Shown here one piece after another: positions 8,656 to 59,811 of a stretch of DNA of 64,000 nucleotides; within the stretch, counting starts at the first letter, position 1; every line of letters begins with the position of its first letter. The notes beneath the pieces were generated by a model. The model saw only the letters and a program-made list of their open reading frames with translations, searched no databases and was not told where the DNA came from. The stretch is taken from NCBI GenBank assembly GCA_016861245.1, contig BOKZ01000001.1, positions 615,006 through 679,005 on the forward strand, given 5' to 3'. This DNA is from Patescibacteria group bacterium (lineage in GTDB: Bacteria > Patescibacteriota > UBA1384 > 2-12-FULL-50-11). The translations under genes were made by a program, and so were the position numbers.

Positions 8656-9386
8656 TGTTAAAAGTTCGCGATCTACAAATTCCACTCACGCATTCCACCG
8701 ACGGTCTGTCGTTTCAATTGCAATCTGGTGAAATTTTAGGAGTTATCGGAAAAAACTCATCGGGAAAAAGCGAACTACTAGAGTGTTTGGCGACTCCTTC
8801 TCTAGCTCGCTCGGGCAGTGTATCGATAAATAATGTGGACGCTCTACAAGAATCTCTTAAGTACAGGCATTTGATCGGGTATCTACCGAACCCCGTAATT
8901 ATCGAGCCACACCTCACCGGCATCGAGTTTCTTGAGTTAATAAGCGGAAGCTACGAGTTATCGCCGAAGGATCGAACTGAACAGATCTTGAAACTAGCCG
9001 AAGAGTTAGGCTGTCACTCTGAAATGTTTACGTTAATTGAGCGACTCTCGAATTCAACTAAACAAAAAATTGCGTTTATCGCGACGCTGCTTCACTCACC
9101 GAGAGTTCTCTTCTTAGATGAACCTTGGCAGTTTCTCGACTGGAGCGGCCAAGAAGCAGTGACTCAGATTATCAAAAACCAGCAAGTTGAGGGACGTGTT
9201 GTTGTTATTTCGAGCAACGACCTCGATCGTCTAGAGGAGCTGACAAAACAATATCTCGTACTAGACGAGGGTGCCACGCTGGCGATGGGGACTCTTACAG
9301 AGCTAGCGAACAGTACGCGGTCCAAATCAAAATCACTGCCCGACATTTGGCGCTCAATGGAAAAAATTGGCCATTTGCGTGAGTAA
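8655..9386 (+). CDS. ABC transporter ATP-binding protein (degenerate signature motif)
   Basis: Walker A GKNSSGKSELLECL. Walker B VLFLDEPWQFLD. Weak signature LSNSTKQKIA. Confidence 0.7.
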   Translation: MLKVRDLQIPLTHSTDGLSFQLQSGEILGVIGKNSSGKSELLECLATPSLARSGSVSINNVDALQESLKYRHLIGYLPNPVIIEPHLTGIEFLELISGSYELSPKDRTEQILKLAEELGCHSEMFTLIERLSNSTKQKIAFIATLLHSPRVLFLDEPWQFLDWSGQEAVTQIIKNQQVEGRVVVISSNDLDRLEELTKQYLVLDEGATLAMGTLTELANSTRSKSKSLPDIWRSMEKIGHLRE

Positions 9387-10717
9387 TGAGTTATCTTTCG
9401 TTGGCGCTCCTTGGTATTAGTAGAGTACTAGTTCGGCGGAATCGAACGGTGAGCGTGCTCAATATTATTTTAACGCTGATAATACTTGCTGTTTGGGCAG
9501 CGATTATTTGGTTTATCCGTGCTGAGTACAACGGAGCGTTAGTTCTACAACTAACAGTGTTAGTACAGGTACTTTCAGTCTCCGCGCTCGTCATCTTTTC
9601 CTCCTCGGCCATTTGGCAAAAGTACTTTTCAAGACAAACGATCGCTTGGTTAGAAGCGATGCCAGCGTTAGTATTTGGCTCGATCATCTCGATAGTTACG
9701 CTGGTACCGTACTACTTGGCGTACACCTCACTGAGCAGTAACCCGTATATACTCCTGCGCTTAGTTTCGATCACACTGCTCTGTATATCCTGGGGAGTTA
9801 TCGCCGCCTCGATCGGTTTATTTATACAAAAGACTACCGCCTCCGTACTGGCCCGCGCATTACTCTATATTGCTGCTTGCGCTGGAGTATTCTACTTAGT
9901 TTCGTCGGAAATTTTCACCGTTATTAGTACTGGCCTACAAGCCAGTACGATTAATACAGCTATTACAGCTACGCTACTAACCGTTGGGCTATGCGGGTTC
10001 TCGATCGCATTGCTTGAAGTAGTATCAAGTATCCCCGATAGATTCCACCGCGCGTATCGGTATTCTGGGCTACTTACTTCCTTTAGGATATTTGGTATTA
10101 GTGGCGACCAACGAAGCGTTCAAATTACAAACGCGGTCTTACACTGGTTGCGCAGTACCTCAAATCAATATCGTTTAGCGGCGCTACTATTAGTGCTCTA
10201 CGGCATCAACAAAATATATCAGGCTACAGAGTTAATCGACCAACGCGGCTCGATACTACTGTTAGGGGCTGTAATCTGTGCGTTTACCGCCACGATTAGT
10301 TTTACTGCTACAACTCGCTCGCAATTGCAGCGATATCACTGGTTACCCTTAACAAAAAACTCGGCCGCTACCAGCGATTGGTTAGCAGGAGTACTAATTT
10401 ACGCGCTGACGCTTGCGGTGTTCTACTGGTTTTCGACAAATATCTCGCTATCAGTTTTTGGGACAATCGCAGCGGTGGCATTAATAACGCATACTATTAC
10501 CGTTGGGGTGGTTTACAACTTGAGCAGAGTGCACCAACATTTTACTGATCGTTTAACTCCCTTGATTATCGGCAGCGCCTTACTCGGTCTAACACCTGGG
10601 TTATTCTTCCAGATCGTACCAACGGACATCACCTATGCTGTACTTGGACTTTGGCTACTTTCGACATTGGTATTTTTTCGTTTCGTCAATCGAGAGAATC
10701 AGCTTTCTGTACGTTAA
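9386..10717 (+). CDS. polytopic membrane protein, putative permease partner of the upstream ABC ATPase
   Basis: 443 aa. About 10-12 hydrophobic helices. Translationally coupled (ATGA overlap) to the ABC ATPase gene. Confidence 0.5.
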   Translation: MSYLSLALLGISRVLVRRNRTVSVLNIILTLIILAVWAAIIWFIRAEYNGALVLQLTVLVQVLSVSALVIFSSSAIWQKYFSRQTIAWLEAMPALVFGSIISIVTLVPYYLAYTSLSSNPYILLRLVSITLLCISWGVIAASIGLFIQKTTASVLARALLYIAACAGVFYLVSSEIFTVISTGLQASTINTAITATLLTVGLCGFSIALLEVVSSIPDRFHRAYRYSGLLTSFRIFGISGDQRSVQITNAVLHWLRSTSNQYRLAALLLVLYGINKIYQATELIDQRGSILLLGAVICAFTATISFTATTRSQLQRYHWLPLTKNSAATSDWLAGVLIYALTLAVFYWFSTNISLSVFGTIAAVALITHTITVGVVYNLSRVHQHFTDRLTPLIIGSALLGLTPGLFFQIVPTDITYAVLGLWLLSTLVFFRFVNRENQLSVR

Positions 10718-23336: not shown

Positions 23337-23614
23337 TGAGCAACGTAACACTAATAGATTTCTGGGCGGCTTGGTGCGGACCGTGTAAAGTGATGCACCC
23401 GATCGTAGAAGAGCTCGAAAAAGAATATAGCGGTAAACTGACCGTTACAAAATACGACGTTGATGATCCTGCAAATCAGTCTGTAGTTCAGAAATACGAG
23501 GTTATGGCGATGCCAACGTACTTTATTGAAAAAGACGGAGAAGTGGTACAGCAGTTCGTCGGCGCTCAGAGCAAAAAGACTCTCGCCGACGCTATCGATA
23601 AAGTACTAAGTTAA
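23337..23614 (+). CDS. trxA: thioredoxin
   Basis: Active site WAAWCGPCK. AGGAGG RBS 6 nt upstream of MSNVTLIDF. About 92 aa. Confidence 0.9.
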
Positions 23615-26539
23615 TTGTTGGAACAGTTGAACGATTTCTGACTCTTCGTCATCGATAGGAAAATCTTTTCTTGAGAGTATCTCGTTGTAGGAATCTACAA
23701 CATCTCGCTTCATTTGTTTAATTTCGTCAGTAGTAATCTGAAAAACTTCGCAACGAAACGTCTTTTTATCATCGATAAATTGGATGGCGAATTCTTTTGC
23801 TTGATACGGAAAGAGTGGGTCGAGTTCGCACAGCATAGCGTAGAATACTAATTGCGCTTTCATTTTACCGTCAGAGTCCTGGGTTTTCCCTTCGATATAA
23901 TTTGCAGTTCTTGATTGTGAACCGGTTTTATAGTCGATAATTCGAACGTTTTTCGTTGTTGGGCTAATCGGTTCGATGCAGTCAATTTTACCGTTTAGCC
24001 AAATTTTTTCTAACATCACCTGGTGAGGTCTAAAACTGTACTCAGTCCCAAGCGGCCTAATCCATGTGGGGGCGTGAGAGTCGTAAAACTCACTTAATAC
24101 ATCGATGCCCTGCTCAAGAAAGGTGTCTCGGTTAGTGTACGGAATGCTCCTCTGTATCTCTTCTCTAAAGTAGAGGAGTAGTTTTTGCTTAGTCGGTAAT
24201 TTCTTGAACGCCTTGTAGTCTCGGTTAAAGCGCTCAAGGGCGGCGTGGACCGAGTCACCGTAAGCCAAGCTTGGCGTAAACGGCGTCGGTAACTTATATA
24301 CGTGTTTCAGTAAGTAAGTTCGTGGGCATGTTTTATAATCCCAGTATGCCGTGAACGAGAACGGGACTTGAGCCACACGCTCCCGGATAAAAGAGAGTTC
24401 GGCGGAGTTGATTGAGGAGTCGGGAATAGGGAAGAGTTGTTGAGTAATGAACCGGCTAAGTTGTGTTTCTTTAATCGTTAGCGGTTCCGATCGAGCAGTC
24501 GTTTCTATCTCTTTAACCAACTGGCTCGGAAGCTCATCACGACCATCAGCGCCGATTTGCGAATACGAAATAGTTAACTGCTTTCTTGCACGAGTTATCG
24601 CCACATAGAACAGTCGTCTCATATCTTCTAACTCATCATTATCAGTACCGGCCGCACCGATCAGCTCACTAGGAATTTTTACCGTAGAACGATTCGGCTT
24701 AACGCGCCAAACGCGATCGGTGGCATGAGGAATAAATACAACGTCAAACTCGAGTCCCTTTGCTTGATGGACAGTATTAATAAACACGCCCGCGGTTTCA
24801 GCGCGGGATCGATTAACTGAAAATGACAGACCGTACGTCCGATGTAGCTCAAGGTATTCGAGCCAATCAGAGAGTTGCGCGGTTTGATTTCGCTTGGCGT
24901 ACTCGCGACAATTTTCAATTAGCGTCGCCACTAACTCAAGGCTCGATAAGTGCTGCGGTCGCTTCCGAATAGCGTCGAGAACACCGCCACGATACAACAC
25001 CTCTTCGACAAGTTCCGGCACCGATAGCAGTTCTTGCCGGTGGTGCCATTCAACGAGACGCTCAGCCACATTTTTTATACCCTGGTTCGCGGTTTCAAGG
25101 GCAGCAGCGATTATTTTCTTCTTTGTTTCGCGAGCAGTATTAATTACCTCAATTACACTCAGCGCCTCTTTTGTACCGACAAGCGCTCGAAGCGCGCTGG
25201 CAACTGCCACATCGTTATTCGGATCGTTGATTGCTCGTAGTAGTTGGACTAACACTTGAACTTCTCTTTCTTTTAGCAAATCCGTACTTTGTAGGCCGGC
25301 CACCACCAAACCGGCTTTCTCAGCTGAATCACGAAAATCATTCGCTTCGCTATTAGTTCGAAAAAGTACCGCCATCTCCTCCCAAGCGATACCATCCTTG
25401 TGCAAACGGTTCAGACGATCGATGAGCGCAAAATGTTCAGCAATTTGGGTTGTAGCTACTAAAATATCTGGCTGTAACCCTGGGCTTACAGTTGCTTGTA
25501 GGGAGTCAGCGACGGCTGGGATTTGTTTTGAGAGTTGCTGGCTGTTGTGAGAAATTAATTCGTGAGCTGTTTCTAGAATTTCTGGAGAGCTTCGATAGTT
25601 TTGAGTTAGTGAAATCACTGTAAGATCGGGATACCTTCGGTAAAAATGCAGCATATTTGTCACTGAAGCGCCCTGGAAGCGGTAGATGGCTTGTTTATCG
25701 TCACCGACGACAAATAAATTTGGCGTCTCGAAAAAATCAGCGAGTAACTCGACTAATTTATTCTGAGCGTTGTTAGTATCTTGATACTCATCAACTAAAA
25801 TATATTGATACCGTTCCTGAAAATATGCTTTAACTTCGGCGTTTTTTTGTAGCGCCGAGAGTGCCAGTAGAATCATATCTTCGTAGTCGTAGACAGAGCG
25901 ACGTTCTAACTCTTTTTGGTACTCCGTTAAAATCTCTGCGAACTCGAGCAGGATCTGGCTCGTTCGTTTGTTCCGTTCAGCTTCAGTCTTATTTTTTACT
26001 TTTTTCCGACCGAGCGCTTGGACGTACGTAACTATCTGATTAACCTCGATCGCTTCCTGCTTAGCCGTCCTAATCGCGCTCGCGATATCGCGAACGTGCG
26101 CCGTTTCGCTTCGAAGTGGACGCAGTAATTTTACTGATGGATTTTTTTTAATGATCTTCTCAAGTAGTAGTAGGCGCTCAAGATTATCTAGTTGAGTGAG
26201 TGTACGAGCGGTTGAAAAAATATGGGGGAAGGTGCCGATAACTTCGTTAGCGAAACCGTGGAACGTTGCGATCGTTACTTGATATGAAACAGCACCGATA
26301 TATTTGGTAAGACGCTCTCTTAGAGCCACAACACCGGCTTCAGTGAAAGTAAGCGCTAAAATATTTTTTGCCGACAGCTGAGTGCTCTGTAAGATAGCTG
26401 CAATTCTAAGCGCGACAACTTGTGTTTTACCCGTACCCGGTCCCGCTACTACCATCACCGGGCCCTCAATCGCTTCGACAGCTTGTCGCTGAGCAGTGTT
26501 AAGTTTGCGCAACTCTTTTCTAAATCGGTTTTCGCTCAT
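23606..26539 (-). CDS. UvrD/PcrA-family SF1 helicase fused to a C-terminal PD-(D/E)xK (RecB/AddB-like) nuclease domain
   Basis: 977 aa. Walker A VMVVAGPGTGKTQV. A UvrD-like helicase core fills the N-terminal two thirds. The C-terminal region carries IDYKTG...FYAMLCE, a RecB-family nuclease signature. Confidence 0.75.
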   Translation of the reverse strand: MSENRFRKELRKLNTAQRQAVEAIEGPVMVVAGPGTGKTQVVALRIAAILQSTQLSAKNILALTFTEAGVVALRERLTKYIGAVSYQVTIATFHGFANEVIGTFPHIFSTARTLTQLDNLERLLLLEKIIKKNPSVKLLRPLRSETAHVRDIASAIRTAKQEAIEVNQIVTYVQALGRKKVKNKTEAERNKRTSQILLEFAEILTEYQKELERRSVYDYEDMILLALSALQKNAEVKAYFQERYQYILVDEYQDTNNAQNKLVELLADFFETPNLFVVGDDKQAIYRFQGASVTNMLHFYRRYPDLTVISLTQNYRSSPEILETAHELISHNSQQLSKQIPAVADSLQATVSPGLQPDILVATTQIAEHFALIDRLNRLHKDGIAWEEMAVLFRTNSEANDFRDSAEKAGLVVAGLQSTDLLKEREVQVLVQLLRAINDPNNDVAVASALRALVGTKEALSVIEVINTARETKKKIIAAALETANQGIKNVAERLVEWHHRQELLSVPELVEEVLYRGGVLDAIRKRPQHLSSLELVATLIENCREYAKRNQTAQLSDWLEYLELHRTYGLSFSVNRSRAETAGVFINTVHQAKGLEFDVVFIPHATDRVWRVKPNRSTVKIPSELIGAAGTDNDELEDMRRLFYVAITRARKQLTISYSQIGADGRDELPSQLVKEIETTARSEPLTIKETQLSRFITQQLFPIPDSSINSAELSFIRERVAQVPFSFTAYWDYKTCPRTYLLKHVYKLPTPFTPSLAYGDSVHAALERFNRDYKAFKKLPTKQKLLLYFREEIQRSIPYTNRDTFLEQGIDVLSEFYDSHAPTWIRPLGTEYSFRPHQVMLEKIWLNGKIDCIEPISPTTKNVRIIDYKTGSQSRTANYIEGKTQDSDGKMKAQLVFYAMLCELDPLFPYQAKEFAIQFIDDKKTFRCEVFQITTDEIKQMKRDVVDSYNEILSRKDFPIDDEESEIVQLFQQLT

Positions 26540-31080: not shown

Positions 31081-31343
31081 TTAAGATAATCATACCAAGA
31101 CTATATGAAATAGTAATTATTTTTACGTCGTACAATGTATCTTGTGCGACACTTAAGAACAGATGGCGATTAAATTATTAAAAATATTAGCCATAAGAGC
31201 CGGTCCCTAAATAAGCGGAAATAGTGGTGCAGCGCAGCTGTGACCCCCGGGGACCTCCCTGAGAAAAGTAGAAATTGCAAAATTTTTAACACTTCTCCCC
31301 CACTGCCGGCGGGGGAGAAGGTAGCAAACAAAAAATTAATCTG

Positions 31344-34259
31344 TTATTTTATTTCGTCGATCGGCTCGTAATCGTCGTTAATTTTAGGTCTGTCAACGTG
31401 CGTCGAATCTAGTTTCAGACCCAGCGAGTCAGCCTGATCCCAGGTAATTAAATGCGTCAATTCTTCGTCACTCTCCCCTGCTCCCCCACTCTGCGGCTCG
31501 GTGTCTAGATGTAATTCTTCGATCACTTGTTCGCTAATCGCCGCTTCTGGTGCTGGACTCACAGGCGAGGAACTCTCAGAAACTGGGGACTCCCCTGCTT
31601 CAGTCGGTTTTTCAACCATATCCCCTTCTGGAGAAACCGCGTACCATTGCCGATTAAAACGATCTTTCAGTATCTCCATCTTCTTCGGCAAGATAAACTC
31701 AGTTTCCTTTACGATCTCTTGTTGCTCTTCTGTTTGGATATCTGATTTAACAGGTTCGGCCTCGGTTTGATTTTTTTCTGTGGGTAGGGTGACAATCCGA
31801 TCCATCTTTTTCGCGTTTTCGACGCTGTGCGGATTTTTATCCTCTTCTTCGCTTAAGTTGATCGGTGACGACCAATCGGTGATGTAATCTTCGACGTCAC
31901 TTTTTGGTGTAGCAAACGCCTCCCGACTAGCAATTACAACTTGATCCTTCAGCATCGCTTTTTCGGTTGGCGGCGGTAGCGTTGCGGCGGAGAACGCCGG
32001 CACCGTAACGCCGTCGATCGCCATCTTTAAGTAAATCTGGCGGTTCGGCTGGTTCACTAAATCGTTTACATCGAAAACTGGCTGGAACTCATTTTTTAGC
32101 GCCTCGGCGTCGGCCGCGCCGACACGAAACGCTACCATCGTACCAACGTTCCCGAATACAGCGTTTGCGACAGTCTCCGGCATCTGGCTGATGTACTGGT
32201 TAATCATCACCAAATTGAGTCGGTATTTACGAGCTTCAGAAAGAATTGTTGCAAACGAGTCGGTCGCAAAATTCTGAAACTCGTCTACGTATAAGTAGAA
32301 ATCACGTCGATCTTCTTCTGCAACATTTGTTCGTCCCATCGCTGCAAGTTGAATCTTAGTAATTAACATAGAACCAAGCAGCGCCGAGTTATCCTCGCCA
32401 ATTTTTCCGGTCGAGAGATCGGCAAGTAGAATCTTGCCTTCGTCCATAATTTTCCGGATATCCATCGTCGATCGCGGTTGTCCGACAATATTCCGAATTG
32501 TTGAAGACGAGAGGAACTGGCCGACTTTGTTTTGGATCGGTGCGATCGCTTCTTGCCTAAACTTCGGTTCGTACTTTTCGTACTCGTTCACAAAGAAGTC
32601 CTTAATGACCGGGTCTTTCAGCACGCTAATTACTTTTCGACGATAGGCGTTGTCGGTAAGAATTCGCATTACACCCAGTAGCGTCGAGTTCGGATATTCA
32701 AGCAACGCCAATACGGAATTACGTAGGATATACTCCAAGCGCGGACCCCAAGATTCGCCGAAGATCTTTTTAAAGATTCCGACAACACCGGAGGCGACAA
32801 CGTTTTGCATCTCCGGTTGAACGTTTTCTAAGATGTTAAAACCGATCGGGAAATCGTGATCGGCTGGGTTGAAGTAAACGACGTCGTGAATGCGTTCTTC
32901 CGGAATAAAATCTAGTACGTGATCGATCAGCTCGCCGTGCGGATCAACAACAGCGACCCCTCTACCTTCGCGAATATCGTCGTAGATCATGTTTTCCATT
33001 AGCGTCGACTTACCGGTTCCGGTTTTACCGATGATGTAAGCGTGTAAACGACGATCTTTCTTTTTAATACCGAACTTGCGAATTTCGTTACGGAAGTTTG
33101 TTTGCGCGAATACTGTTAGCTCGTCCGCTGGCACGGTCCCGATTAGCGGCAAGTTCGACGGCGGTTCCCCTTTTTTGGAGCCTGCCCACGCGATCGTCGG
33201 CGTAGCCACTGTTTCTGACGGGAAATGGTAAAGCGACGCTAGCTCGGTGATGTTAAAAATCATATCGCCAGCGCCAATATCACGATTTCGGTAGAGCGTG
33301 ATTACATCGTGATCGGTTACGATTTCTTTTGACGCAAACCCGTTTAAGTTAAGCGTATTGTATTGCTTATAAGCGCCGACAATTTGCTCTAGCTTGGCGC
33401 TGGCGGCGTACTGCTCCGGCGCGATCGCCACGATGCGAATCGTAGAGCCAAATCCGAGTTTTGTAATCTTCTCTTCGATTCCCTTAAGCGCTTGTTGAAC
33501 CGGGCCGCTTAATTCTTTTGCTTTACTCTCTTTTTTCTCTTCCGGAGCGCTGCCAGCGCCAGTAGCGACGCTCTTAATAAAATCGACCGTGAAGTTCTTC
33601 ATTTCTTTAGCGACCAACTCGACGGCGCCAACTTGTTTAGCTGGCGGTTCTTTAACGTTTTTAATCTCAGCGTCTCCGAGCTTTTGCCAGTCGTCGTCGA
33701 TCGGTCGGACGATCAACTGAACCCAAATTTCCTCGTGATCACCAGCCGAACTAAGCACCCCGGTAATCGATGAAAGCGGGTCAACTTCAAAGTTTTGGAA
33801 CGTTTTAATTGGATAAACAGGCGGTTTTTTAAGAACGAGTTCAGTTGCCGCCACCGCTTTTTCTTCCGGCGCAATCGCGTAATCTTGATCGGTCGGTACT
33901 ACAGAAATCTCAACGTTCGGGTACTGCGCGTAAATCTGACTCGTCACAAATTCTTTCAACTCCGCTGGCATTTGAGCAAAGAATGTGATGGTTTTATTTT
34001 TAGAAATTACTTCAAAGCTAATATGTTGTTGTTGTGAAACGCTTTCACGAAAGATACCGTGCAACGCGGCGAACATCTGCTCTGCCGCTTGTGGCGTGCG
34101 GTCGTTGTTTTTTGGTACCGATATCGAAACTAGTACCCGATCGCTCGGACCGAGGTGTTCGGCTACTTCTTGCTTGACTGTCGAGCTACGTCGCCAGAAG
34201 TAAACAGCGCCGCCGATAAAGAAGGCAGTAAATAGTAAATTGATCGTTAGTAACAACAT
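31344..34259 (-). CDS. membrane-anchored type IV coupling protein-like ATPase (VirD4/TraG/TrwB-like, FtsK-HerA superfamily), paralog B, with long acidic C-terminal tail
   Basis: 971 aa. N-terminal TM (LLLTINLLFTAFFIGGAVYFW). Walker A IIGKTGTGKSTLMENM followed by AVVDPHGEL (DPxGE as in TrwB). Walker B FYLYVDEFQNF. The roughly 230-aa C-terminus is acidic and low-complexity. The start overlaps the stop of paralog A (TAATG). Confidence 0.7.
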   Translation of the reverse strand: MLLLTINLLFTAFFIGGAVYFWRRSSTVKQEVAEHLGPSDRVLVSISVPKNNDRTPQAAEQMFAALHGIFRESVSQQQHISFEVISKNKTITFFAQMPAELKEFVTSQIYAQYPNVEISVVPTDQDYAIAPEEKAVAATELVLKKPPVYPIKTFQNFEVDPLSSITGVLSSAGDHEEIWVQLIVRPIDDDWQKLGDAEIKNVKEPPAKQVGAVELVAKEMKNFTVDFIKSVATGAGSAPEEKKESKAKELSGPVQQALKGIEEKITKLGFGSTIRIVAIAPEQYAASAKLEQIVGAYKQYNTLNLNGFASKEIVTDHDVITLYRNRDIGAGDMIFNITELASLYHFPSETVATPTIAWAGSKKGEPPSNLPLIGTVPADELTVFAQTNFRNEIRKFGIKKKDRRLHAYIIGKTGTGKSTLMENMIYDDIREGRGVAVVDPHGELIDHVLDFIPEERIHDVVYFNPADHDFPIGFNILENVQPEMQNVVASGVVGIFKKIFGESWGPRLEYILRNSVLALLEYPNSTLLGVMRILTDNAYRRKVISVLKDPVIKDFFVNEYEKYEPKFRQEAIAPIQNKVGQFLSSSTIRNIVGQPRSTMDIRKIMDEGKILLADLSTGKIGEDNSALLGSMLITKIQLAAMGRTNVAEEDRRDFYLYVDEFQNFATDSFATILSEARKYRLNLVMINQYISQMPETVANAVFGNVGTMVAFRVGAADAEALKNEFQPVFDVNDLVNQPNRQIYLKMAIDGVTVPAFSAATLPPPTEKAMLKDQVVIASREAFATPKSDVEDYITDWSSPINLSEEEDKNPHSVENAKKMDRIVTLPTEKNQTEAEPVKSDIQTEEQQEIVKETEFILPKKMEILKDRFNRQWYAVSPEGDMVEKPTEAGESPVSESSSPVSPAPEAAISEQVIEELHLDTEPQSGGAGESDEELTHLITWDQADSLGLKLDSTHVDRPKINDDYEPIDEIK

Positions 34260-36655
34260 TAGAGTGAAATTGCGTCAACTGGTGGCAAAGAGTATTGCTT
34301 ACGTGCGGCAGTGCGAATCCAGTTAGACATCTCTATTGTACCCTTGTTTGGGCTCTTTACGCCTCGGAGACTAAACGGTTTGGTTGGCGTCAGGTCCACG
34401 AGCAGCTTAACATAGGCCTGAAACCGGTCAAGGTTGGTTAGATCCTCAACGGACAAGCCGACCATCTCGTGGCTAAGGTACTCGGCGTCTTCAGCGCCGA
34501 CGCGATACGCAATTAATGTACCGACGTTACCAATCACCGCATCGCGGATTTTTTCGGTTAACTGCGCAAAATACTGGTTCGTAATATTTAAACAGAGCCT
34601 GTACTTTCGTGCTTCGGCTAAAATTGTTGCGAACGTGTCGGTCGTAAAATTCTGAAACTCATCAACGTACAAATAGAAATCTTGGCGATCTTCCTCTGGA
34701 ATATCGGCGCGACTAAACGCAGCCACTTGCATTTTCGAAACAAGAATAAGCCCGAGTAGATTCGAGTTAATCTCACCAATTTTACCCTTGGCTAAGTTGA
34801 TGAGCAGGATCTTTTTACCGTCCATTACTTCGCGAAAATCAAACGAACTTTTTTTCTGGCCGATAATATTGCGCATTAAATCGTTGGTCATAAAGCGACC
34901 GAACTTCGAGATAAAATAGTTATACATCTCCGATTTATGGAAATCGGAGGTTTTGGCTAATTGCTGCTGCCAAAAGGCTTTCACAACCGGATCGGTAACG
35001 TTGGCGACAGATTTTTCCCGGAACGCGTCGTCGGTGAAGAGTCGTGGCAGATCGATCAAACTGCCGCCATCTGGGTTGCTCATTACCGTCAGCGCTGCGT
35101 TACGTGCCCAGTGCTCCCACTGCGGTCCGACGATGCCGGTACGGTTAGGGTCAAAAAGCTTGTAGAAAATTTCGATTACTTCTTGAATTAGAAAGTCTTT
35201 TTCCTCCGGACGACTGTACTCTAGTAAGTTCAGTCCGAGTGGATACTCGGTATCTGATGGGTCAAATAGGATAACGTCTTTAGCGCGGTGAGTTGGAACC
35301 TTCTTTAATAAACTTTCAATCGCGTCACCGAGCGGATCGATAAAACATAGCCCTTTACCGGCGTGCATGTCTTGCTCAATCATCGTCTCAAACAACGTCG
35401 TTTTCCCAACACCAGTTTTTCCGATCATGAATAAGTGTCGACGCCGATCTTCGTCTTTAAGCCGAACCAACTGACGCGTACCGCGGTAGATCGACTCGCC
35501 CAACACCACGCCGTCGTTTGGCAAATTCGCCGGCGCCGGTAACGAGCGAGCGACTAACCACTTAACGCCAGGTGTCTCCAACGAACGGTTCGGCAGATGA
35601 AAAATACTACTTATCTCTTCAACGTTTAGGATCATCCGCGGCGCCCCGGTAAATAGACGCAGCAAATAATCGCGGGCAATCTTTTGCGGCGCCACTTTTT
35701 TATATTTCAAACTATTAAATTGCGGCGAGTAAAACTGCGCCATCGACGAAATAATAATATTTAAATTAGCGTCAGCAGACGCTTCGTCTTTTCCGGTCGC
35801 CACAATCCTAATTATTACTTCAAATCCCGTCTTAGCGCCTTTTTCCTGTAGACCTTTAATCAGCTCTTCCTGCTGAGGGTTGAGCGGCTGTGGCTTTTCT
35901 TCCACTTTAGTTGGTCGTACAACTTCGCCGATCATACCGGCAACGCGCCCGGTTTTAGAGCGATTAACTAAATGCATTTTGTTGTTAGTAACGTGTCCAG
36001 TAGCCACGACGGTATGCTGACGCCACGAGTCGTTGATCGGTCGAATAAGCAGTTGGACCGCGGCTGTGCCGTTGTCTTTTAATTTCGTTAGTGCGTTCGT
36101 CATCGCCGAGAGCGGATCGGTCTCCAAATAACGGTAAGTTTTTAACGGTAAGATAAAACTTTTAGCTTGTTCCATTACTGCGCCGCTAACTGCTGGAGCT
36201 TCGGCGGTAAAAATCGGCGGCGGCACATCGTACTGAATTTCCGCGGTCGGAAAGTAACTATGCAGTTGTCTCTCAACGATCGATTGAATGCGCTTCGGAC
36301 AAATTATTAAAAACTGAATCACGTTACCGACCGAAACGATCTCCAAACTAACGTGCGCCGGCGTACTAAATAACCAATCAATAAAATGTTTCTGATGAAT
36401 GGTGGTGGTTAACGAAGAGTAGAACTGCTCCATCGGCGAGATTAAGTCTTTAAAGTCTTTGATCGGCTCGTTAGCTTGATCAGTTCGTTTCTGTGTATCG
36501 CGCGGTACTGTTACCGTCATCGCTACAAGACTTTTTACATCATCAAATGTATCTTTTTTCTGGAAGTAGCGTAAAAACAGCGTCAAGATGATCGGTACAA
36601 TCGCAATGACGGCAATAATTGTAAAAAATAAGTAATTAGGTAGGCCGTCAAACAT
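34259..36655 (-). CDS. membrane-anchored type IV coupling protein-like ATPase (VirD4/TraG/TrwB-like), paralog A
   Basis: 798 aa. N-terminal TM (YLFFTIIAVIAIVPIILTLFL). Walker A MIGKTGVGKTTLFETM followed by CFIDPLGDA. Walker B FYLYVDEFQNF. Same architecture as paralog B, with about 35-40% identity by eye in the ATPase region. Confidence 0.7.
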   Translation of the reverse strand: MFDGLPNYLFFTIIAVIAIVPIILTLFLRYFQKKDTFDDVKSLVAMTVTVPRDTQKRTDQANEPIKDFKDLISPMEQFYSSLTTTIHQKHFIDWLFSTPAHVSLEIVSVGNVIQFLIICPKRIQSIVERQLHSYFPTAEIQYDVPPPIFTAEAPAVSGAVMEQAKSFILPLKTYRYLETDPLSAMTNALTKLKDNGTAAVQLLIRPINDSWRQHTVVATGHVTNNKMHLVNRSKTGRVAGMIGEVVRPTKVEEKPQPLNPQQEELIKGLQEKGAKTGFEVIIRIVATGKDEASADANLNIIISSMAQFYSPQFNSLKYKKVAPQKIARDYLLRLFTGAPRMILNVEEISSIFHLPNRSLETPGVKWLVARSLPAPANLPNDGVVLGESIYRGTRQLVRLKDEDRRRHLFMIGKTGVGKTTLFETMIEQDMHAGKGLCFIDPLGDAIESLLKKVPTHRAKDVILFDPSDTEYPLGLNLLEYSRPEEKDFLIQEVIEIFYKLFDPNRTGIVGPQWEHWARNAALTVMSNPDGGSLIDLPRLFTDDAFREKSVANVTDPVVKAFWQQQLAKTSDFHKSEMYNYFISKFGRFMTNDLMRNIIGQKKSSFDFREVMDGKKILLINLAKGKIGEINSNLLGLILVSKMQVAAFSRADIPEEDRQDFYLYVDEFQNFTTDTFATILAEARKYRLCLNITNQYFAQLTEKIRDAVIGNVGTLIAYRVGAEDAEYLSHEMVGLSVEDLTNLDRFQAYVKLLVDLTPTKPFSLRGVKSPNKGTIEMSNWIRTAARKQYSLPPVDAISL

Positions 36656-36977
36656 CTTTATTGGCCTCGAAGAAGTGCTCCATCATCGCTTGAACGGCAC
36701 CGATATCGGCTTTTGAGTCTGTAAGTGCCTCGTCGATGGCAGCTTTCGGCGCCGAGGACTCCGACTCAGGCTGCTGTTGGCTACTTTTTGCGGGTTCGAC
36801 TTCTTTTTGTTGTACTTCCTGAACTACTCTTGTCTGTTCAGCAGCCCCACCTCCGGTTTCTGGTTGTTGACCGATCCAAGGGCCTTCGTTGAGCCGTTCT
36901 CGCCACTGCGATACCTCTGGACCTACGCTCTGATCAGACTCCGGAGCAACTCCGGAGAACCTTGGTTTACCCTCCAT
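36648..36977 (-). CDS. small acidic low-complexity protein, first gene of the ATPase module
   Basis: 109 aa. Gln/Glu/Pro-rich and predicted disordered. Overlaps the start of ATPase A by 8 nt. Confidence 0.4.
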   Translation of the reverse strand: MEGKPRFSGVAPESDQSVGPEVSQWRERLNEGPWIGQQPETGGGAAEQTRVVQEVQQKEVEPAKSSQQQPESESSAPKAAIDEALTDSKADIGAVQAMMEHFFEANKDV

Positions 36978-37014
36978 AACATAAATATACCAGTCCCCGT
37001 CTCTTTTGTAAGTC

Positions 37015-39071: not shown

Positions 39072-40028
39072 ATGATCAACGTAGTCAAATCTGCATGGAA
39101 GTGGCTATTAACTTTCGTGCTCAAACCGCTCGTCCTCTACAGAAGCCGCGAACACGTTGAATTCAAATTCAATTGGTTCAGTACGTTTCTAGTGCTGCAG
39201 TCAGCGGCGTGCATCAGCCTCGTACTGTGGCTGTACCATCGCATCTCGCCGGAGCTCTTTGCCGTACAGTTCAACTCGCCCTGGTACGAGTATGTGATCT
39301 GTTTCGTCGTCGCTCACGCGTTCATGGGACTGTTCGAGTACTTCTTTCATCGCTACACGCTCCACGGGCTGTTCTGGAAGTTCCTCTGGTTTCTCCATCG
39401 GAAGCACGAGGAGCATCACGGCCTTACGCACGTCACCGACCTTAAGGGTAGCACTGAAGTGGCGTCGAGGAGTAAAGTTCGAAACAAGTACGCGATCAAA
39501 GACGGCGACCAAATTCAGTCGTCGGCCTTTCCGGCCTACGCCCTGGTCACCTTCTGGGGGATCTTCAGTCTTGTTCTCGTCCCACTGCAGCTACTCTTGC
39601 GATCGCAACCGATCGTTATAACCGGCTACATGTCGGTTGTGTTTTCGTTCGGTCTCTACGAGATTATCCACGCCATCTGGCATCTGGATTACGACAAGCA
39701 TTGGAAAAAGCGCGTCGAAACCTCAAAGACTTGGCGAACGATCTACGGGTTCCATCTCATGCACCACGTCCGTGGTTGCAGTAGAACTAACCTGGCAATC
39801 AGCGGCGTATTCGGCTACTGGCTATGGGACAAACTGTTCGGCTCGCTCTACATTCCATCCGAGTTACCACTCGAAGGCGTGGAGATCGATCCCGACACGC
39901 TCAAGCCCCCGAAACCGCCTCGCTGGCTCCAGTGGCTCGACGAAAAAGTCGATGCCCGCGCAGCCCGCATCAAAAAGCAAGAAGCCAAACGGCGTCTCGC
40001 CGTGCATCAGTCCTCCTCGCGCCCGTAA
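39072..40028 (+). CDS. fatty acid hydroxylase/sterol desaturase superfamily membrane protein (di-iron His-box enzyme)
   Basis: 318 aa. His boxes HRYTLH, HRKHEEHH, HAIWHLD and HLMHH, with several TM segments. The gene is GC-rich (all-frame shadow ORFs), suggesting horizontal acquisition. Confidence 0.7.
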   Translation: MINVVKSAWKWLLTFVLKPLVLYRSREHVEFKFNWFSTFLVLQSAACISLVLWLYHRISPELFAVQFNSPWYEYVICFVVAHAFMGLFEYFFHRYTLHGLFWKFLWFLHRKHEEHHGLTHVTDLKGSTEVASRSKVRNKYAIKDGDQIQSSAFPAYALVTFWGIFSLVLVPLQLLLRSQPIVITGYMSVVFSFGLYEIIHAIWHLDYDKHWKKRVETSKTWRTIYGFHLMHHVRGCSRTNLAISGVFGYWLWDKLFGSLYIPSELPLEGVEIDPDTLKPPKPPRWLQWLDEKVDARAARIKKQEAKRRLAVHQSSSRP

Positions 40029-45880: not shown

Positions 45881-46633
45881 CTATCCTCCTGCCGCTGCTG
45901 CCGAGCTGGAGCTCGACGATGACGACGAAGAGGAAGAACTGGAAGAGCTTGAGCTCGAAGACGAGCTCCCGCCCGCGCCACCTGCACCGCCGAAAGCAAG
46001 AGCTGCAACGTTGAACGTATTGCCCTTGCCCAGCTGGGCATTGAAGGAGACGCCGCCGATCACCGGCGAGATCACCGTCGGAGCGCCCAGGTTGGCGATG
46101 TGTTGCTGCTGGGTGGGCAGCAACATGACGGGAATGTACTTCGGCACTTCGACCGGCCGATCGACCGGCACGTAGACCGGCACTTCGACCCGTCGTTCGG
46201 GACCAGGTACCGTCACTCGGTACTCGCGAACCAACGTGCGTTGGTACGTCAGCGTTCGAGTCTCGGTTTTCACCGCCGACCGCTGCCAGATCAGGTTGTT
46301 GCAAGCAACAATCTGAAGCGGCAGATCGGTCTTGCGATCGCAGAGAACCTGGCGACCAGCGAGCGATTCGTACTTGAACTCGTTACGGTTGCGGTAGTGA
46401 ACCCAACCGTACTCGCCCTGACGACCGGCACGTCGGTACGTGCCCTCGTTGCTCACCGGAAGTCGCGAGTAGGACCATTGGTAGTCCTTGGAGAGCAGAA
46501 GGTCTGGGCCTTCCTGGTACTCTCGGACGAACTCCCGAGTTCCAGAACTCGTTGACGGGTCAATGCTCTGCGCACCAGCGAGGCTGGCACAGATCAGAGC
46601 GGCAATGACGAGAGGGGTGTGGATCAGTTTCAT
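45881..46633 (-). CDS. secreted hypothetical protein with C-terminal poly-Ser tail (GC-rich islet)
   Basis: 250 aa. Signal peptide MKLIHTPLVIAALICASLAGAQS. Val/Pro-rich repeats (VEVPVYVPVDRPVEVPKYIPV). Ends with GGAGGAGG + S24. Local GC is about 60%. Confidence 0.55.
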   Translation of the reverse strand: MKLIHTPLVIAALICASLAGAQSIDPSTSSGTREFVREYQEGPDLLLSKDYQWSYSRLPVSNEGTYRRAGRQGEYGWVHYRNRNEFKYESLAGRQVLCDRKTDLPLQIVACNNLIWQRSAVKTETRTLTYQRTLVREYRVTVPGPERRVEVPVYVPVDRPVEVPKYIPVMLLPTQQQHIANLGAPTVISPVIGGVSFNAQLGKGNTFNVAALAFGGAGGAGGSSSSSSSSSSSSSSSSSSSSSSAAAAGG

Positions 46634-46634
46634 C

Positions 46635-47807
46635 TTAGTTCTCCTCGCTCAAGCGGAAGACGAGAGTTCGCTCTCGTCCGTCGGCGTCGATCAGTGTGAT
46701 CGTCGCTCCAAGGAAGCGCTTGATACTTCCCCAGGCTATCGCTTCGTGGCGATCGCCGCTTCGGCGCAACATCAGCGGGTGGTCTTTGTCGTCGAGCCTC
46801 AGTACCGCTGTAAACTGCCTGGAGTCACTCAACGTCAGTACCACTTGATTCCGACGGGAGGATAACTGGATCTCAGTTACCTCCGGCGCGAACGTGTGAC
46901 GACGTGCATCTCCGAGTAGTTGCTGCTCGGTGGCGTTCAGCTCTGAACGGAGGAAGTCGAACTTCTGCTCCGAACTTGTCTGCATCGCACCAACAGTAAC
47001 AGCGCAAAACTCGACTGGAGGCTGGTTAGCACCGGCCGTTCCAGCGTTACCTGCGTTACCGACGTTTGCACCGGTTGGAAAACCACCGGGCAAAGCGGTG
47101 TTGCCTGTCTGCGTAGTCGGCGGCTGGTTAGCCGGTCGACCTTGCAGGGCAATTTGGAACTCCTCAAGCGAAGTAAAGTTCCGAATCGTTCCGTCCGGCA
47201 TCTGAGCCGTGTATGACTGAACGACTGGATACATACTTCCACCCGCGCCGGCCGTAGCCAGGCGAGCTTGCTCGTCAGCGGCCATTTGGAGAAATTGGCG
47301 GATATCGAGACGAATGAACGTCGCACTCCCCCACTCCGTACGGCTCGTACGAACCTTGATCTGGTTGATTCCAAGATCTAGATCGCTGACGGCGATGAAC
47401 GGATAGTCGCCAACCACGCCCTGAGCGCCGCTGGGTCTACCTCTCACCACCCTGCCACCTTCGACCTTCCGCCACTCGACTAACTTGTCGTTGACGTAGA
47501 TTGTGTGGTCGTGAGCTGGTGAGCTGTTCGTGAAGGCTTTCACCTTCAGCAGAACTTTGTCACCAAACCAGACCGAAGTCTGAGTGGTGGGATCCCAGCT
47601 CGTAAAGTAAGTCGGTTGATCGCCCTTGACGATGTAAACGTCGAAAACGACCTTGACGGCCGAAATCGGACGTTCTTGCGTTTGGGCGATCCGGGCGTTG
47701 ATACCCGAGCTGATTGCTCCGAAGAGCAACGACTCGAGCAACTGTGCCTTTGCGAACGTTGGGGCAATGGCAAGAACCACCGCCATCAGAATTGCGGATT
47801 TCTTCAT
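46635..47807 (-). CDS. secreted hypothetical protein (GC-rich islet)
   Basis: 390 aa. Signal peptide MKKSAILMAVVLAIAPTFAKAQ. A Gly/Asn/Ala-rich linker in the middle. No family recognised. Its stop is 1 nt from the start of the next gene. Confidence 0.55.
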   Translation of the reverse strand: MKKSAILMAVVLAIAPTFAKAQLLESLLFGAISSGINARIAQTQERPISAVKVVFDVYIVKGDQPTYFTSWDPTTQTSVWFGDKVLLKVKAFTNSSPAHDHTIYVNDKLVEWRKVEGGRVVRGRPSGAQGVVGDYPFIAVSDLDLGINQIKVRTSRTEWGSATFIRLDIRQFLQMAADEQARLATAGAGGSMYPVVQSYTAQMPDGTIRNFTSLEEFQIALQGRPANQPPTTQTGNTALPGGFPTGANVGNAGNAGTAGANQPPVEFCAVTVGAMQTSSEQKFDFLRSELNATEQQLLGDARRHTFAPEVTEIQLSSRRNQVVLTLSDSRQFTAVLRLDDKDHPLMLRRSGDRHEAIAWGSIKRFLGATITLIDADGRERTLVFRLSEEN

Positions 47808-59808: not shown

Positions 59809-59811
59809 AGA

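What the first reader, a model, noticed from the sequence alone, without database searches (positions are those of the whole stretch)
31344..36977. Tandem paralogous membrane-anchored T4CP-like (VirD4/TraG/TrwB-type) ATPases with a coupled small acidic protein, and no other T4SS parts
Two adjacent genes of 798 aa and 971 aa have the same architecture. Each has one N-terminal TM helix, then about 370 residues of unknown domain, then an FtsK/HerA-superfamily P-loop ATPase.

- The Walker A (GKTG[VT]GK[ST]TL) is followed within 20 aa by a DPxGE/D motif.
- The Walker B has the form FYLYVDEFQNF.
- This combination marks type IV coupling proteins such as TrwB, TraG and VirD4 rather than VirB4.

The pair is translationally coupled through a TAATG stop/start overlap, and an 8-nt overlap links it to a 109-aa disordered acidic protein upstream. 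The 971-aa paralog carries a roughly 230-aa acidic low-complexity tail.

No VirB-like channel components are present in 60 kb (no VirB6, VirB8-11 or relaxase). The module sits in one operon with tgt and a histidine phosphatase. The same window also encodes DprA, RecR and a type IV pilus locus. This may be a self-contained DNA or protein translocation motor, possibly for competence, cell-cell transfer or episymbiont-host interaction. In the sense of missing its canonical partners, it is undescribed.
Basis: partly seen in the sequence, partly recalled or inferred. Interest (0 to 1): 0.85.

Follow-up and report, generated by a model that had tools for sequence, protein, structure and literature searches.

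The report
Paired VirB4/T4CP-hybrid membrane ATPases
Two neighbouring genes encode ancient sister copies of a membrane-anchored motor protein found in nearly all Patescibacteria; it joins a VirB4-like front half to a coupling-protein-like ATPase, its gene family is already catalogued, and one copy's counterpart is essential in the only genetically tractable relative.

Summary
ORFs of 109, 798 and 971 aa lie at the stated coordinates, with the stated overlaps and motifs.

- **Family.** Both large proteins belong to a catalogued Patescibacteria-wide family (Pfam DUF8128 plus weak TrwB_AAD_bind/TraG-D_C hits). A 2025 survey probably counted these proteins among its "T4CP homologues" encoded away from virB4.
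- **Age of the pair.** The two genes are ancient paralogues (35% identity; separate clades in 171/200 and 200/200 bootstraps), not a recent duplication. Adjacency and linkage to tgt were seen only in the window's own lineage and its nearest sampled relatives (7 of 84 loci).
- **Experimental data.** In Southlakia the two types sit at separate loci. Published Tn-seq calls the A-type orthologue essential and the B-type dispensable.
- **Tail.** The B-type acidic tail ends in conserved peptide motifs.
- **Phage relatives.** Distant full-length homologues occur in SPO1-like Bacillus phages beside nickase and partition genes.

"No partners" cannot be concluded from 64 kb, because about 80% of Patescibacteria genomes carry a T4SS elsewhere. 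The pair most likely forms a membrane ATPase that energises or couples envelope translocation, probably with that T4SS.

The parts
36648..36977 (-). Small upstream ORF, 109 aa. It is acidic (pI 4.45), low in complexity, has no TM segment, and overlaps the A gene by 8 nt.
   Evidence: ORF listed; overlap ATGTTTGA and composition. A small same-strand ORF sits directly upstream in 56 of 84 related loci. No sequence homology was detected between classes or even to the closest relative L001. The positional counterpart in Southlakia, SEML1_0141, had zero Tn insertions, which could be a polar effect.
34259..36655 (-). A-type DUF8128/T4CP-like ATPase, 798 aa.
   Evidence: AlphaFold model has mean pLDDT 86.9. 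It groups with the single-locus genes of all other Patescibacteria classes. By gene-for-gene synteny it corresponds to SEML1_0142, which Tn-seq calls essential.
36572..36634 (-). A: single N-terminal TM helix (residues 8-28), followed by RYFQKKD. Predicted topology is N-out/C-in.
   Evidence: Hydropathy and sequence. The model shows a continuous helix over residues 7-41.
35501..36538 (-). A: DUF8128 domain (residues 40-385) with a VirB4 N-terminal-domain-like fold.
34286..35500 (-). A: FtsK/HerA-superfamily ATPase domain (residues 386-790), T4CP-like by sequence, with an all-helical insert at about residues 483-600.
35399..35422 (-). A: Walker A, GKTGVGKT (residues 412-419). DPLGD follows at residues 440-444 (35324-35338).
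   Evidence: G412, K413, G415, G417, K418, D440, P441 and G443 are invariant across 73 A- and B-type sequences. The same block aligns to TrwB GATGTGKS...VDPNGD.
34646..34678 (-). A: Walker B block, FYLYVDEFQNF (residues 660-670).
   Evidence: D665, E666, F667, Q668, N669 and F670 are invariant across the 73 sequences.
31344..34259 (-). B-type DUF8128/T4CP-like ATPase, 971 aa. Its start codon shares one base with the A stop codon (TAATG).
   Evidence: B-types form their own clade in 200/200 bootstraps. The likely Southlakia counterpart, SEML1_0293, is non-essential, with reads falling 5817 to 1372.
34194..34256 (-). B: single N-terminal TM helix (residues 2-22), followed by RRSS.
33120..34148 (-). 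B: DUF8128 / VirB4-NTD-like domain (residues 38-380).
   Evidence: It aligns with the A N-domain. PF26449 is precomputed on the identical protein P0121.
31890..33119 (-). B: ATPase domain (residues 381-790). Walker A GKTGTGKS is at 33006-33029, DPHGE at 32931-32945, and Walker B FYLYVDEFQNF at 32268-32300.
   Evidence: Pfam TrwB_AAD_bind 36.5 bits, DUF87 29.3, TraG-D_C 26.8 and T4SS-DNA_transf 23.7.
31347..31889 (-). B: acidic, largely non-conserved C-terminal tail (residues 791-971). It has three conserved islands: RFNRQWY (31641-31661), LITWDQADSLGL (31416-31451) and the terminal PIDEIK (31347-31364).
   Evidence: Across 120 B-type orthologues the median tail is 177 aa with 20% D+E. A-types of this lineage have a tail of about 13 aa. 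Conservation map; coordinates.
31292..31320 (-). GC-rich hairpin (CTTCTCCCCCGCC-GGC-AGTGGGGGAGAAG) 24 nt after the B stop codon. It is the likely end of the transcription unit.
   Evidence: Read directly from the sequence. It was not called by the terminator scan, because the T-run is not immediately adjacent.
36984..37012 (-). Promoter-like site (CTTACA-17-TATATT with an upstream TG) in the 37-nt gap between tgt and the small ORF. It may be an internal promoter for the triplet.
   Evidence: This is weak evidence, because promoter-like sites are not enriched in the region (6 found, 9.1 expected).

Best explanation
**What it is (shown).** The two large genes are the A-type and B-type members of an ancient paralogue pair. 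The pair belongs to a Patescibacteria-wide, chromosomally encoded family of membrane-anchored FtsK/HerA-superfamily ATPases. Each protein has three parts:
- one N-terminal TM helix;
- a cytoplasmic domain of about 340 residues with the fold of the VirB4 N-terminal domain (Pfam DUF8128);
- an ATPase domain closest in sequence to type IV coupling proteins, with intact Walker A and B motifs and a helical insert.

The B-type adds an acidic, disordered tail that ends in conserved short peptide motifs.

**How it works (inferred).**
- By analogy with VirB4, TrwB and DotL, the proteins assemble into ring-shaped oligomers at the inner face of the membrane. Where both genes are co-translated, as here, the rings may be mixed A/B assemblies.
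- ATP hydrolysis then drives or gates passage of a macromolecule through an envelope channel.
- The VirB4-like N-domain, together with the TM helix, is the docking module to membrane partners. In the R388 system the VirB4 N-domain binds VirB3 and VirB8 tails.
- The B-type tail motifs recruit an adaptor or substrate, as the C-terminal tails of TraD and DotL do.

**Most likely partner.** The best candidate is the phylum's chromosomal, relaxase-less, MPF-FATA-like T4SS. Its own gene cluster lacks a recognisable coupling protein, and it is essential for epibiotic growth in Southlakia. The A-type orthologue is also called essential in that screen.

**What it is not.** The triplet is not a self-contained system. 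Its position next to tgt is an accident of lineage-specific gene order.
For: **Family and architecture.**
- Pfam T4CP families score above cut-off on both proteins.
- DUF8128 is precomputed on the near-identical proteins P0001 and P0121.
- The models are confident, with pLDDT 86.9 and 89.4.
- By sequence profile, only TrwB and DotL are significant.
- Catalytic residues are invariant across 73 A- and B-type sequences.

**Distribution.**
- Homologues occur in Microgenomatia, Paceibacteria, ABY1, Gracilibacteria/Peregrinibacteria, Saccharibacteria and Berkelbacteria.
- The N-domain profile finds 4,750 clusters at 50% identity.
- The neighbours are always housekeeping genes.

**Ancient paralogy.** A-to-A identity across classes is 42%, against 35% for A-to-B. 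The A clade is recovered in 171/200 bootstraps and the B clade in 200/200.

**Experimental data from the literature (Wang 2023, PMC10633639, Tables S1 and S2).**
- SEML1_0142 is called ES/ES/ES, SEML1_0141 had 0 insertions, and SEML1_0293 is NE with a 4-fold fall in reads. Both large genes are flagged as "core" and "Patescibacteria-enriched".
- Gene-for-gene synteny ties SEML1_0142 to the A-type.
- The Southlakia T4SS cluster is essential and lacks a recognisable coupling protein.
- About 80% of Patescibacteria genomes carry virB4, and T4CP-like genes are almost never next to it.

**Tail.** The B tail carries conserved C-terminal peptide motifs.
Against: - No physical or genetic link to the T4SS has been shown. 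The T4SS assignment rests on family resemblance and on both systems being essential in one organism.
- T4CP-like genes were detected in more genomes (2,918 of 3,035) than virB4 (2,417). Sampled draft genomes list T4CP rows without a VirB4 row. This argues against strict dependence on the T4SS.
- The T4CP sequence signal is weak, at 24-37 bits. The PADLOC mad8 model scores higher on the ATPase core, at 57 bits.
- The fold cannot separate T4CP from VirB4 or HerA.
- Canonical T4CPs have no VirB4-like N-domain.
- Distant phage homologues sit beside nickase and partition genes, not beside secretion genes.
- Oligomeric state, mixed A/B assembly and the function of the tail are untested.
- Whether this particular genome has a virB4 cluster is unknown.
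Confidence: 0.5

Rival explanations
1. The proteins form a T4SS-independent DNA motor. In this reading the family is a separate branch of the VirB4/VirD4 clade. It pumps or handles DNA at the membrane on its own or with unknown partners, for example in replication-linked segregation, DNA export, or exchange with the host cell.
For: - The family is more widespread than virB4: 2,918 against 2,417 of 3,035 genomes.
- Recurrent neighbours across classes are DNA-metabolism genes, including GyrB/GyrA, DnaX, NrdR/RNR, a Xer-type recombinase and a UvrD-nuclease.
- Full-length phage homologues lie in replication regions. SPO1 gp27.4, phage G gp156 and D6E ORF23 sit beside genes annotated "replication initiation by nicking" and "partition protein".
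- The ATPase carries the T4CP-type helical insert, which Pfam annotates as a DNA-binding domain.
Against: - Small Patescibacteria genomes are dense with housekeeping genes, so such neighbours are expected by chance, and they differ between classes.
- A canonical FtsK (4TM, alpha, motor and gamma domains) is present and essential in Southlakia, so chromosome segregation is already covered.
- There is no relaxase or nickase next to the bacterial genes.
- No DNA-binding test has been done.
Confidence: 0.25
2. This is the first reader's reading: a self-contained motor for competence or cell-to-cell transfer. It would work with the type IV pilus, ComEC and DprA machinery encoded nearby.
For: - DprA, RecR and a pilus locus lie in the same 64 kb.
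- The archaeal DNA-import ATPase models CedB and CedD give weak sub-threshold matches around Walker A.
Against: - In Southlakia, comEC is dispensable and is required for transformation, whereas the A-type orthologue is called essential. Competence therefore cannot be the A-type's main role.
- DprA, RecR and the pilus genes are 15-30 kb away, and they were not seen next to the gene in the other loci sampled.
- The CedB and CedD scores, 14-30 bits, are far below their cut-offs of 600-700.
Confidence: 0.07
3. The pair is a remnant or recent local duplication of a conjugative-element TraG/VirD4 gene, with the rest of the element lost.
For: NCBI names and Pfam hits are those used for conjugative coupling proteins.
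Against: - The paralogues are only 34-35% identical and form separate, well-supported clades.
- The gene order tgt / small ORF / A / B / SecDF is conserved among the closest relatives, and the surrounding genes are core housekeeping.
- The window shows no integrase, relaxase, repeats or composition shift at the locus.
- Orthologues are 50-84% identical, which is far more conserved than mobile T4CPs usually are.
Confidence: 0.02
4. The pair is the ATPase component of an anti-phage defence system of the HerA, mad8 or DptH type.
For: - PADLOC mad8 scores 57.7 and 56.5 bits on the ATPase cores, and HerA models score 23-34 bits.
Against: - The matches cover only the shared ATPase core.
- No effector or methylase partners are adjacent.
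- The family is near-universal, in conserved synteny, membrane-anchored, and one paralogue is essential. All of these are unlike defence islands.
Confidence: 0.03

Closest known systems
Type IV coupling proteins (TrwB of R388, VirD4, TraD, DotL/IcmO)
   Same: - Membrane-anchored FtsK/HerA-superfamily ATPase.
- The Walker A...DPxGD block aligns with TrwB.
- Pfam TrwB_AAD_bind, TraG-D_C and T4SS-DNA_transf score above cut-off.
- A helical insert sits in the nucleotide-binding domain.
- The acidic C-terminal tail with terminal motifs on the B-type recalls the partner-binding tails of TraD and DotL (from general knowledge).
   Different: - There is one TM helix rather than two.
- A VirB4-NTD-like domain of about 340 residues lies between the membrane anchor and the ATPase.
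- Scores are low, at 24-37 bits.
- No relaxase or T4SS genes are adjacent.
- The family is chromosomal, near-universal in the phylum and highly conserved, and it comes as two ancient paralogues.
VirB4 (TrwK of R388; VirB4 of Thermoanaerobacter, 4ag5)
   Same: - The two-domain layout is the same: an N-terminal domain followed by a RecA-like ATPase.
- An N-terminal TM helix fused in front recalls natural VirB3-VirB4 fusions (from general knowledge).
   Different: - There is no sequence-level membership. TIGR00929 VirB4_CagE scores 13.8 bits against a cut-off of 643, and AAA_10 scores 15.9 against 27.5. CagE_TrbE_VirB gives no hit, and TrwK is absent from PDB sequence-profile hits even at E <= 10.
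- Patescibacteria have a separate, shorter bona fide VirB4 inside their T4SS cluster, for example SEML1_0008 of 612 aa.
Patescibacteria "T4CP homologues" (Quinonero-Coronel et al. 2025) and Southlakia SEML1_0142 / SEML1_0293 (Wang et al. 2023)
   Same: - SEML1_0142 and SEML1_0293 belong to the same family as the window genes.
[quoted passage not shown]
- Domain positions match, with TrwB_AAD_bind at 402-719 in SEML1_0293 and 395-716 in the window's B.
- Layout matches: small ORFs upstream, and GyrBA or a sigma factor as neighbours.
- The 2025 survey's T4CP count probably includes this family, but the rows could not be mapped to DUF8128 proteins.
   Different: - Here the two paralogues are adjacent and translationally coupled, whereas in Southlakia they are about 140 kb apart.
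- Neither paper mentions the VirB4-like N-domain, the A/B split, or the essential call for SEML1_0142.
- The 2025 paper states that the Southlakia T4CP homologue is not essential, which fits only SEML1_0293.
phrog_5156: SPO1 gp27.4, Bacillus phage G gp156, CP-51, SP8 and D6E ORF23
   Same: - Homology runs the full length, including the N-domain. phrog_5156 scores 286-299 bits, and tblastn covers residues 66-754 at about 22% identity.
- Sizes are similar, at 825-907 aa.
- Small ORFs lie directly upstream.
   Different: - These genes are phage-encoded in Firmicutes phages.
- Their neighbours are annotated "partition protein", "replication initiation by nicking" and integrase.
- Their function is also unknown.
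FtsK/SpoIIIE and HerA
   Different: - There is no FtsK 4TM, alpha or gamma domain, and no HerA HAS-barrel.
- FtsK_SpoIIIE scores below its cut-off.
- A canonical, essential FtsK coexists in Southlakia.

Membership tests
Pfam DUF8128 (PF26449) family | Match to the PF26449 profile in the N-terminal region | tested here: met
   The profile is missing from the local Pfam copy. It is precomputed on P0001 (99% identical to A) and P0121 (100% identical to B), and on every listed homologue. One search names it DUF8128.
Type IV coupling protein (VirD4/TraG/TrwB) | Sequence-profile membership (TrwB_AAD_bind, T4SS-DNA_transf, TraG-D_C) | tested here: met
   All three score above the gathering cut-offs on both proteins, but weakly, at 23.7-36.5 bits. 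NCBIfam TraD and VirD4 equivalog models score far below their cut-offs, at 35-52 bits against 250-647.
Type IV coupling protein (VirD4/TraG/TrwB) | Nucleotide-binding domain with intact Walker A and B motifs and an inserted all-alpha domain | tested here: met
Type IV coupling protein (VirD4/TraG/TrwB) | N-terminal membrane anchor, typically two TM helices, followed directly by the NBD | tested here: not met
   There is a single TM helix, followed by a folded domain of about 340 residues before the NBD.
Type IV coupling protein (VirD4/TraG/TrwB) | Genetic association with a relaxase/Dtr module or a T4SS channel | tested here: not met
   None is present in the 64-kb window or in the flanks of 84 related loci. 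The rest of the genome could not be examined.
Type IV coupling protein (VirD4/TraG/TrwB) | Recruits substrates to a T4SS | not testable with these tools
   This needs interaction or secretion assays.
VirB4 | VirB4-type N-terminal domain fold | tested here: met
VirB4 | Sequence-profile membership (CagE_TrbE_VirB, TIGR00929, AAA_10) | tested here: not met
   TIGR00929 scores 13.8 bits against a cut-off of 643.1. AAA_10 scores 15.9 against 27.5. CagE_TrbE_VirB gives no hit. TrwK is absent from the PDB sequence-profile hits.
VirB4 | Encoded with virB3, virB6 and virB8 in one cluster | tested here: not met
   No such genes are in the window or in the related loci.
FtsK/SpoIIIE | 4TM N-domain, alpha/beta motor and gamma (KOPS-binding) domains | tested here: not met
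HerA / defence HerA-like (mad8) | HAS-barrel N-domain, or linkage to NurA, Sir2 or MADS partners | tested here: not met
   Only the ATPase core matches: DUF87 at 29.3 bits on B, mad8 at 57 bits. The N-domain is VirB4-like, and no partner genes are adjacent.

The most novel reading that the evidence does not exclude
DUF8128 ATPases would be a third, unrecognised lineage of the VirB4/VirD4 ATPase clade, retaining a VirB4-type N-domain on a coupling-protein-type motor. In this reading they form an essential translocation machine of their own in Patescibacteria, with relatives in SPO1-like phages. The machine would work independently of the known T4SS. It might move DNA or protein between the epibiont and its host, with the B-type tail motifs selecting the cargo.
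Probability: 0.2. Interest if true: 0.85.

Novelty: new variant of a known kind. Interest (0 to 1): 0.55.

Why it matters
Patescibacteria make up a large share of bacterial diversity and live attached to other cells. In the one tractable species their T4SS is essential, yet its gene cluster lacks a recognisable coupling ATPase.

This analysis points to a near-universal pair of VirB4/T4CP-hybrid ATPases as the obvious candidates for that missing component. One paralogue and its small upstream ORF already score as essential in published Tn-seq data. The later survey overlooked this and described the T4CP homologue as dispensable.

The analysis also defines concrete parts that can be tested:
- the VirB4-like docking domain;
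- the conserved tail peptides LITWDxADxLGL and PIDE(L/I);
- the positionally conserved small upstream ORF.

The hybrid architecture, and its distant relatives in SPO1-like phages, bear on how VirB4 and coupling proteins diverged from each other.

The gene family itself is not a new discovery, and no function has been shown.

Tried and rejected
- **FtsK substitute.** I considered this because the neighbours are DNA-metabolism genes and a Xer recombinase. I rejected it because Southlakia has a canonical, essential FtsK.
- **Small upstream ORF as a conserved partner family.** Profile-profile comparison between classes gave less than 1% probability. Only the Microgenomatia subfamilies are related to each other. 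Even the window and L001 show no significant similarity. Only position and composition are conserved.
- **Literature searches for PF26449 and DUF8128.** Neither term returned any paper.
- **AFDB fold search.** The library was not available, so families sharing the N-domain could be sought only in the PDB.
- **Sequence-level link of the N-domain to VirB4.** None was found.
- **virB4 status of Berkelbacteria-like genomes in the 2025 survey.** The class name does not appear in the text or in the stored tables.
- **Mapping the survey's "T4CP" rows to DUF8128 proteins.** The rows come from two profiles, t4cp1 and t4cp2, and I could not run those profiles.
- **Promoter and terminator scan.** Sites are no more frequent than in shuffled sequence, so the operon boundaries rest on gene overlaps and one hairpin.
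- **First tree script.** It timed out. I repeated it with vectorised distances.
- **Defence-system and mobile-element readings.** I tested both and set them aside (see the rival explanations).

Full report
**1. Observation**

- A and B align over 782 residues at 34% identity (E 4e-149), and the alignment includes the N-terminal 370 residues.
- Each has a single N-terminal hydrophobic helix followed by basic residues, so the rest of the protein should be cytoplasmic.
- Walker A (GKTGVGKT / GKTGTGKS), a DPxG(D/E) motif 21 residues later, and an identical FYLYVDEFQNF Walker B block are all present.
- The junctions are as described: TAATG between A and B, ATGTTTGA between the small ORF and A, and ATGA between the His-phosphatase gene and tgt. 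tgt and the small ORF are separated by 37 nt. A GC-rich hairpin follows B.
- Promoter-like sites lie upstream of the His-phosphatase gene and in the gap between tgt and the small ORF. Such sites are not enriched over shuffled sequence, so this is weak evidence.
- The small protein is acidic (pI 4.45) and the B tail is acidic (pI 4.3).

**2. The window**

Pfam scans of 55 ORFs show ordinary chromosomal housekeeping genes. They include ClpB, DinB, LexA, FtsA/FtsZ, class II RNR, a UvrD-nuclease, SecDF, tgt, ribosomal proteins L1, L10, L11 and L7/L12, RF, CysRS, TopA, DprA, RecR, FtsW and a tmRNA. A type IV pilus locus lies at 58-64 kb. There is no VirB4, VirB6, VirB8-11 or relaxase. Composition is flat across the locus.

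**3. Family**

Both proteins pass the Pfam cut-offs for TrwB_AAD_bind, TraG-D_C and T4SS-DNA_transf, but only at 24-37 bits. NCBIfam TraD and VirD4 models match far below their cut-offs.

Homologues are abundant at 50-84% identity. [quoted passage not shown] All carry an N-terminal Pfam family, PF26449 (DUF8128), that my local Pfam copy lacks.

A scan of species-representative genomes found the family in Microgenomatia, Paceibacteria, ABY1, Gracilibacteria/Peregrinibacteria and Saccharibacteria. The closest named relatives of the window are Berkelbacteria. A profile of the N-domain alone finds 4,750 clusters at 50% identity among 1.84 billion representatives, and the domain always follows a leader of about 40-60 residues.

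**4. Structure**

AlphaFold models are confident: pLDDT 86.9 for full-length A and 89.4 for the N-domain alone.

The architecture is therefore a TM helix, a VirB4-NTD-like domain, then a T4CP-like NBD with a helical insert. This is a hybrid of the two T4SS ATPase types. Neither paper I read on these genes mentions it.

**5. Paralogy and gene order**

In seven related loci (L001-L007) A and B are adjacent or separated by one or two genes. In L001-L006 tgt lies just upstream. SecDF lies convergently downstream in the loci whose sequence extends that far (L001-L003, L007).

In the 77 other species-representative loci there is a single A-like gene in a different housekeeping context:
- NrdR-RNR-PduO upstream and a Xer-type recombinase downstream in Microgenomatia;
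- GyrB/GyrA downstream in Saccharibacteria;
- a small coiled-coil protein and DnaX downstream in ABY1.

A neighbour-joining tree rooted on phage homologues recovers the A-types of all classes as one clade (171/200) and the B-types as another (200/200). Mean identity is 42% within A and 35% between A and B. The split therefore predates the divergence of the classes, and this is not a recent local duplication.

Supplementary Table S3 of the 2025 survey shows close pairs of "T4CP" hits in other genomes too (genes 83/85, 604/605, 273/276). I could not map which of those rows are DUF8128 proteins.

**6. Literature and experimental data**

*Quinonero-Coronel et al. 2025 (PMC12102498).*
- They report 5,713 T4CP homologues in 2,918 of 3,035 Patescibacteria genomes, only 148 of them near virB4.
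- VirB4 is present in 2,417 genomes.

*Wang et al. 2023 (PMC10633639).* They note that the essential Southlakia T4SS cluster lacks recognisable coupling and relaxase proteins. Their Tables S1 and S2 list two family members:
- SEML1_0293 is 921 aa, has TrwB_AAD_bind at 402-719, and lies next to a sigma factor as the B-type does in L007. It is non-essential, but its reads fall from 5817 to 2940 to 1372.
- SEML1_0142 is 1,019 aa and named "TraM recognition domain-containing". It is called ES/ES/ES, with 114 input insertions falling to 11, 11 and 9.
- SEML1_0141, a 139-aa ORF directly upstream of SEML1_0142, yielded no insertions. A polar effect on SEML1_0142 cannot be excluded.

A 1,019-aa Saccharibacteria DUF8128 protein (P0501) has the same gene order, gene for gene: YifB, two small ORFs, the ATPase, two minus-strand genes, GyrB, GyrA. 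It groups with the A-types.

The statement that the T4CP homologue is dispensable therefore fits only the B-like copy. Southlakia also has a canonical, essential FtsK and a dispensable ComEC.

**7. Accessory features**

*B-type tail.* The median length is 177 aa with 20% D+E. It is variable except for three islands, which in the window protein read RFNRQWY, LITWDQADSLGL and the terminal PIDEIK. In this lineage the A-types have no tail.

*Small upstream ORF.* An ORF of 90-200 aa lies directly upstream on the same strand in 56 of 84 loci. Homology is detectable only within Microgenomatia. The window's 109-aa protein has no significant similarity even to that of L001, whose ATPase is 72% identical.

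**8. Relatives outside the phylum**

Both proteins match phrog_5156 over their full length, at 286-299 bits. tblastn finds homologues of about 22% identity covering residues 66-754 in SPO1 (gp27.4), phage G (gp156), CampHawk, CP-51, SP8 and D6E. These sit beside genes annotated "partition protein" and "replication initiation by nicking", or beside an integrase.

IMG/VR contigs carry ATPase-only relatives of 350-430 aa, up to 56% identical to B's ATPase half. PADLOC's mad8 and HerA models match the ATPase core only.

**9. Interpretation**

*Shown.*
- The genes are real.
- They are ancient paralogues with intact catalytic motifs.
- The architecture is a VirB4/T4CP hybrid.
- The family is phylum-wide and chromosomal.
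- One paralogue's orthologue is essential in published data.

*Inferred.*
- The proteins form ring assemblies at the membrane.
- The VirB4-like domain plays a docking role.
- The B tail plays a recruiting role.

*Partner.* The phylum's T4SS is the most likely partner (confidence about 0.5). The main rival is a T4SS-independent DNA motor (about 0.25). Its support comes from the family's wider distribution than virB4, from the phage contexts, and from the recurrent DNA-metabolism neighbours.

*Set aside.* The competence, mobile-remnant and defence readings are unlikely.

**10. Verdict**

- This is a catalogued but uncharacterised family, seen here in an unusually compact, co-translated form.
- New here, as far as the searchable literature shows, are the VirB4-like identity of DUF8128, the A/B split with differing essentiality, the conserved tail motifs, and the phage relatives.
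- Interest is moderate.

Noticed in passing
window 45881-47807 (-): Two adjacent ORFs (250 and 390 aa) have signal-peptide-like N-termini and no Pfam match. They lie in the only GC-rich stretch of the window (57% against 45-50% elsewhere). The 250-aa protein ends in a poly-serine run of about 25 residues. Relatives keep two unannotated ORFs at the same position (L001 681-2596).
   Followed up: partly
window 39072-40028 (+): A 318-aa membrane protein has no Pfam hit but carries three histidine boxes (HEEHH, HAIWH, HLMHH). These are typical of membrane di-iron fatty-acid hydroxylase/desaturase-type enzymes, which is unexpected in a lineage said to lack lipid synthesis.
   Followed up: no
L085-L092 (IMG/VR viral contigs), e.g. 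L085 9932-11230: Stand-alone ATPase-only relatives of 350-430 aa lack the DUF8128 domain. They are up to 56% identical to residues 381-796 of the 971-aa protein. This suggests the motor module also circulates on mobile or viral elements of these bacteria.
   Followed up: partly
L095 (SPO1 gp27.4, 6881-9601), L097 (phage G gp156), L096 (D6E ORF23): Full-length distant homologues (phrog_5156, about 22% identity) occur in large Bacillus phages. They sit next to genes annotated "partition protein", "replication initiation by nicking" or integrase. In phage G a gene annotated "VirB-like" (gp155) lies directly upstream.
   Followed up: partly
Literature: PMC12102498 text compared with PMC10633639 Table S1: The 2025 survey states that the Southlakia T4CP homologue is not essential. 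The Tn-seq table lists two family members: SEML1_0293 is non-essential, but SEML1_0142 is called essential at all time points. The small ORF upstream of it, SEML1_0141, had no insertions.
   Followed up: yes
L007 9535-9753; L053 9135-9515: In some lineages the ORF upstream of the ATPase gene is a small TM protein (72 aa with one TM; 126 aa with two TM, like SEML1_0140). This recalls the virB3-virB4 gene order. In the window the upstream ORF has no TM segment.
   Followed up: no
window 58199-63776 (-): A type IV pilus locus holds five ORFs with the N-terminal methylation motif, a prepilin peptidase (PilD) and a PilC (T2SSF) fragment at the window edge. One 308-aa ORF (58199-59125) has no Pfam match.
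   Followed up: partly
window 23606-26539 (-): A 977-aa fusion joins a UvrD-type helicase to a C-terminal PD-(D/E)XK nuclease (AddA/PcrA-like). It is conserved at the same position in relatives (L001).
   Followed up: no
L002 12563-13132; L007 12230-12793; L014, L027, L079: A conserved protein of about 190-250 aa (cluster c19) has no Pfam match. It lies directly downstream of the A-type gene in several classes, and between A and B in L002 and L007. It is absent from the window.
   Followed up: no
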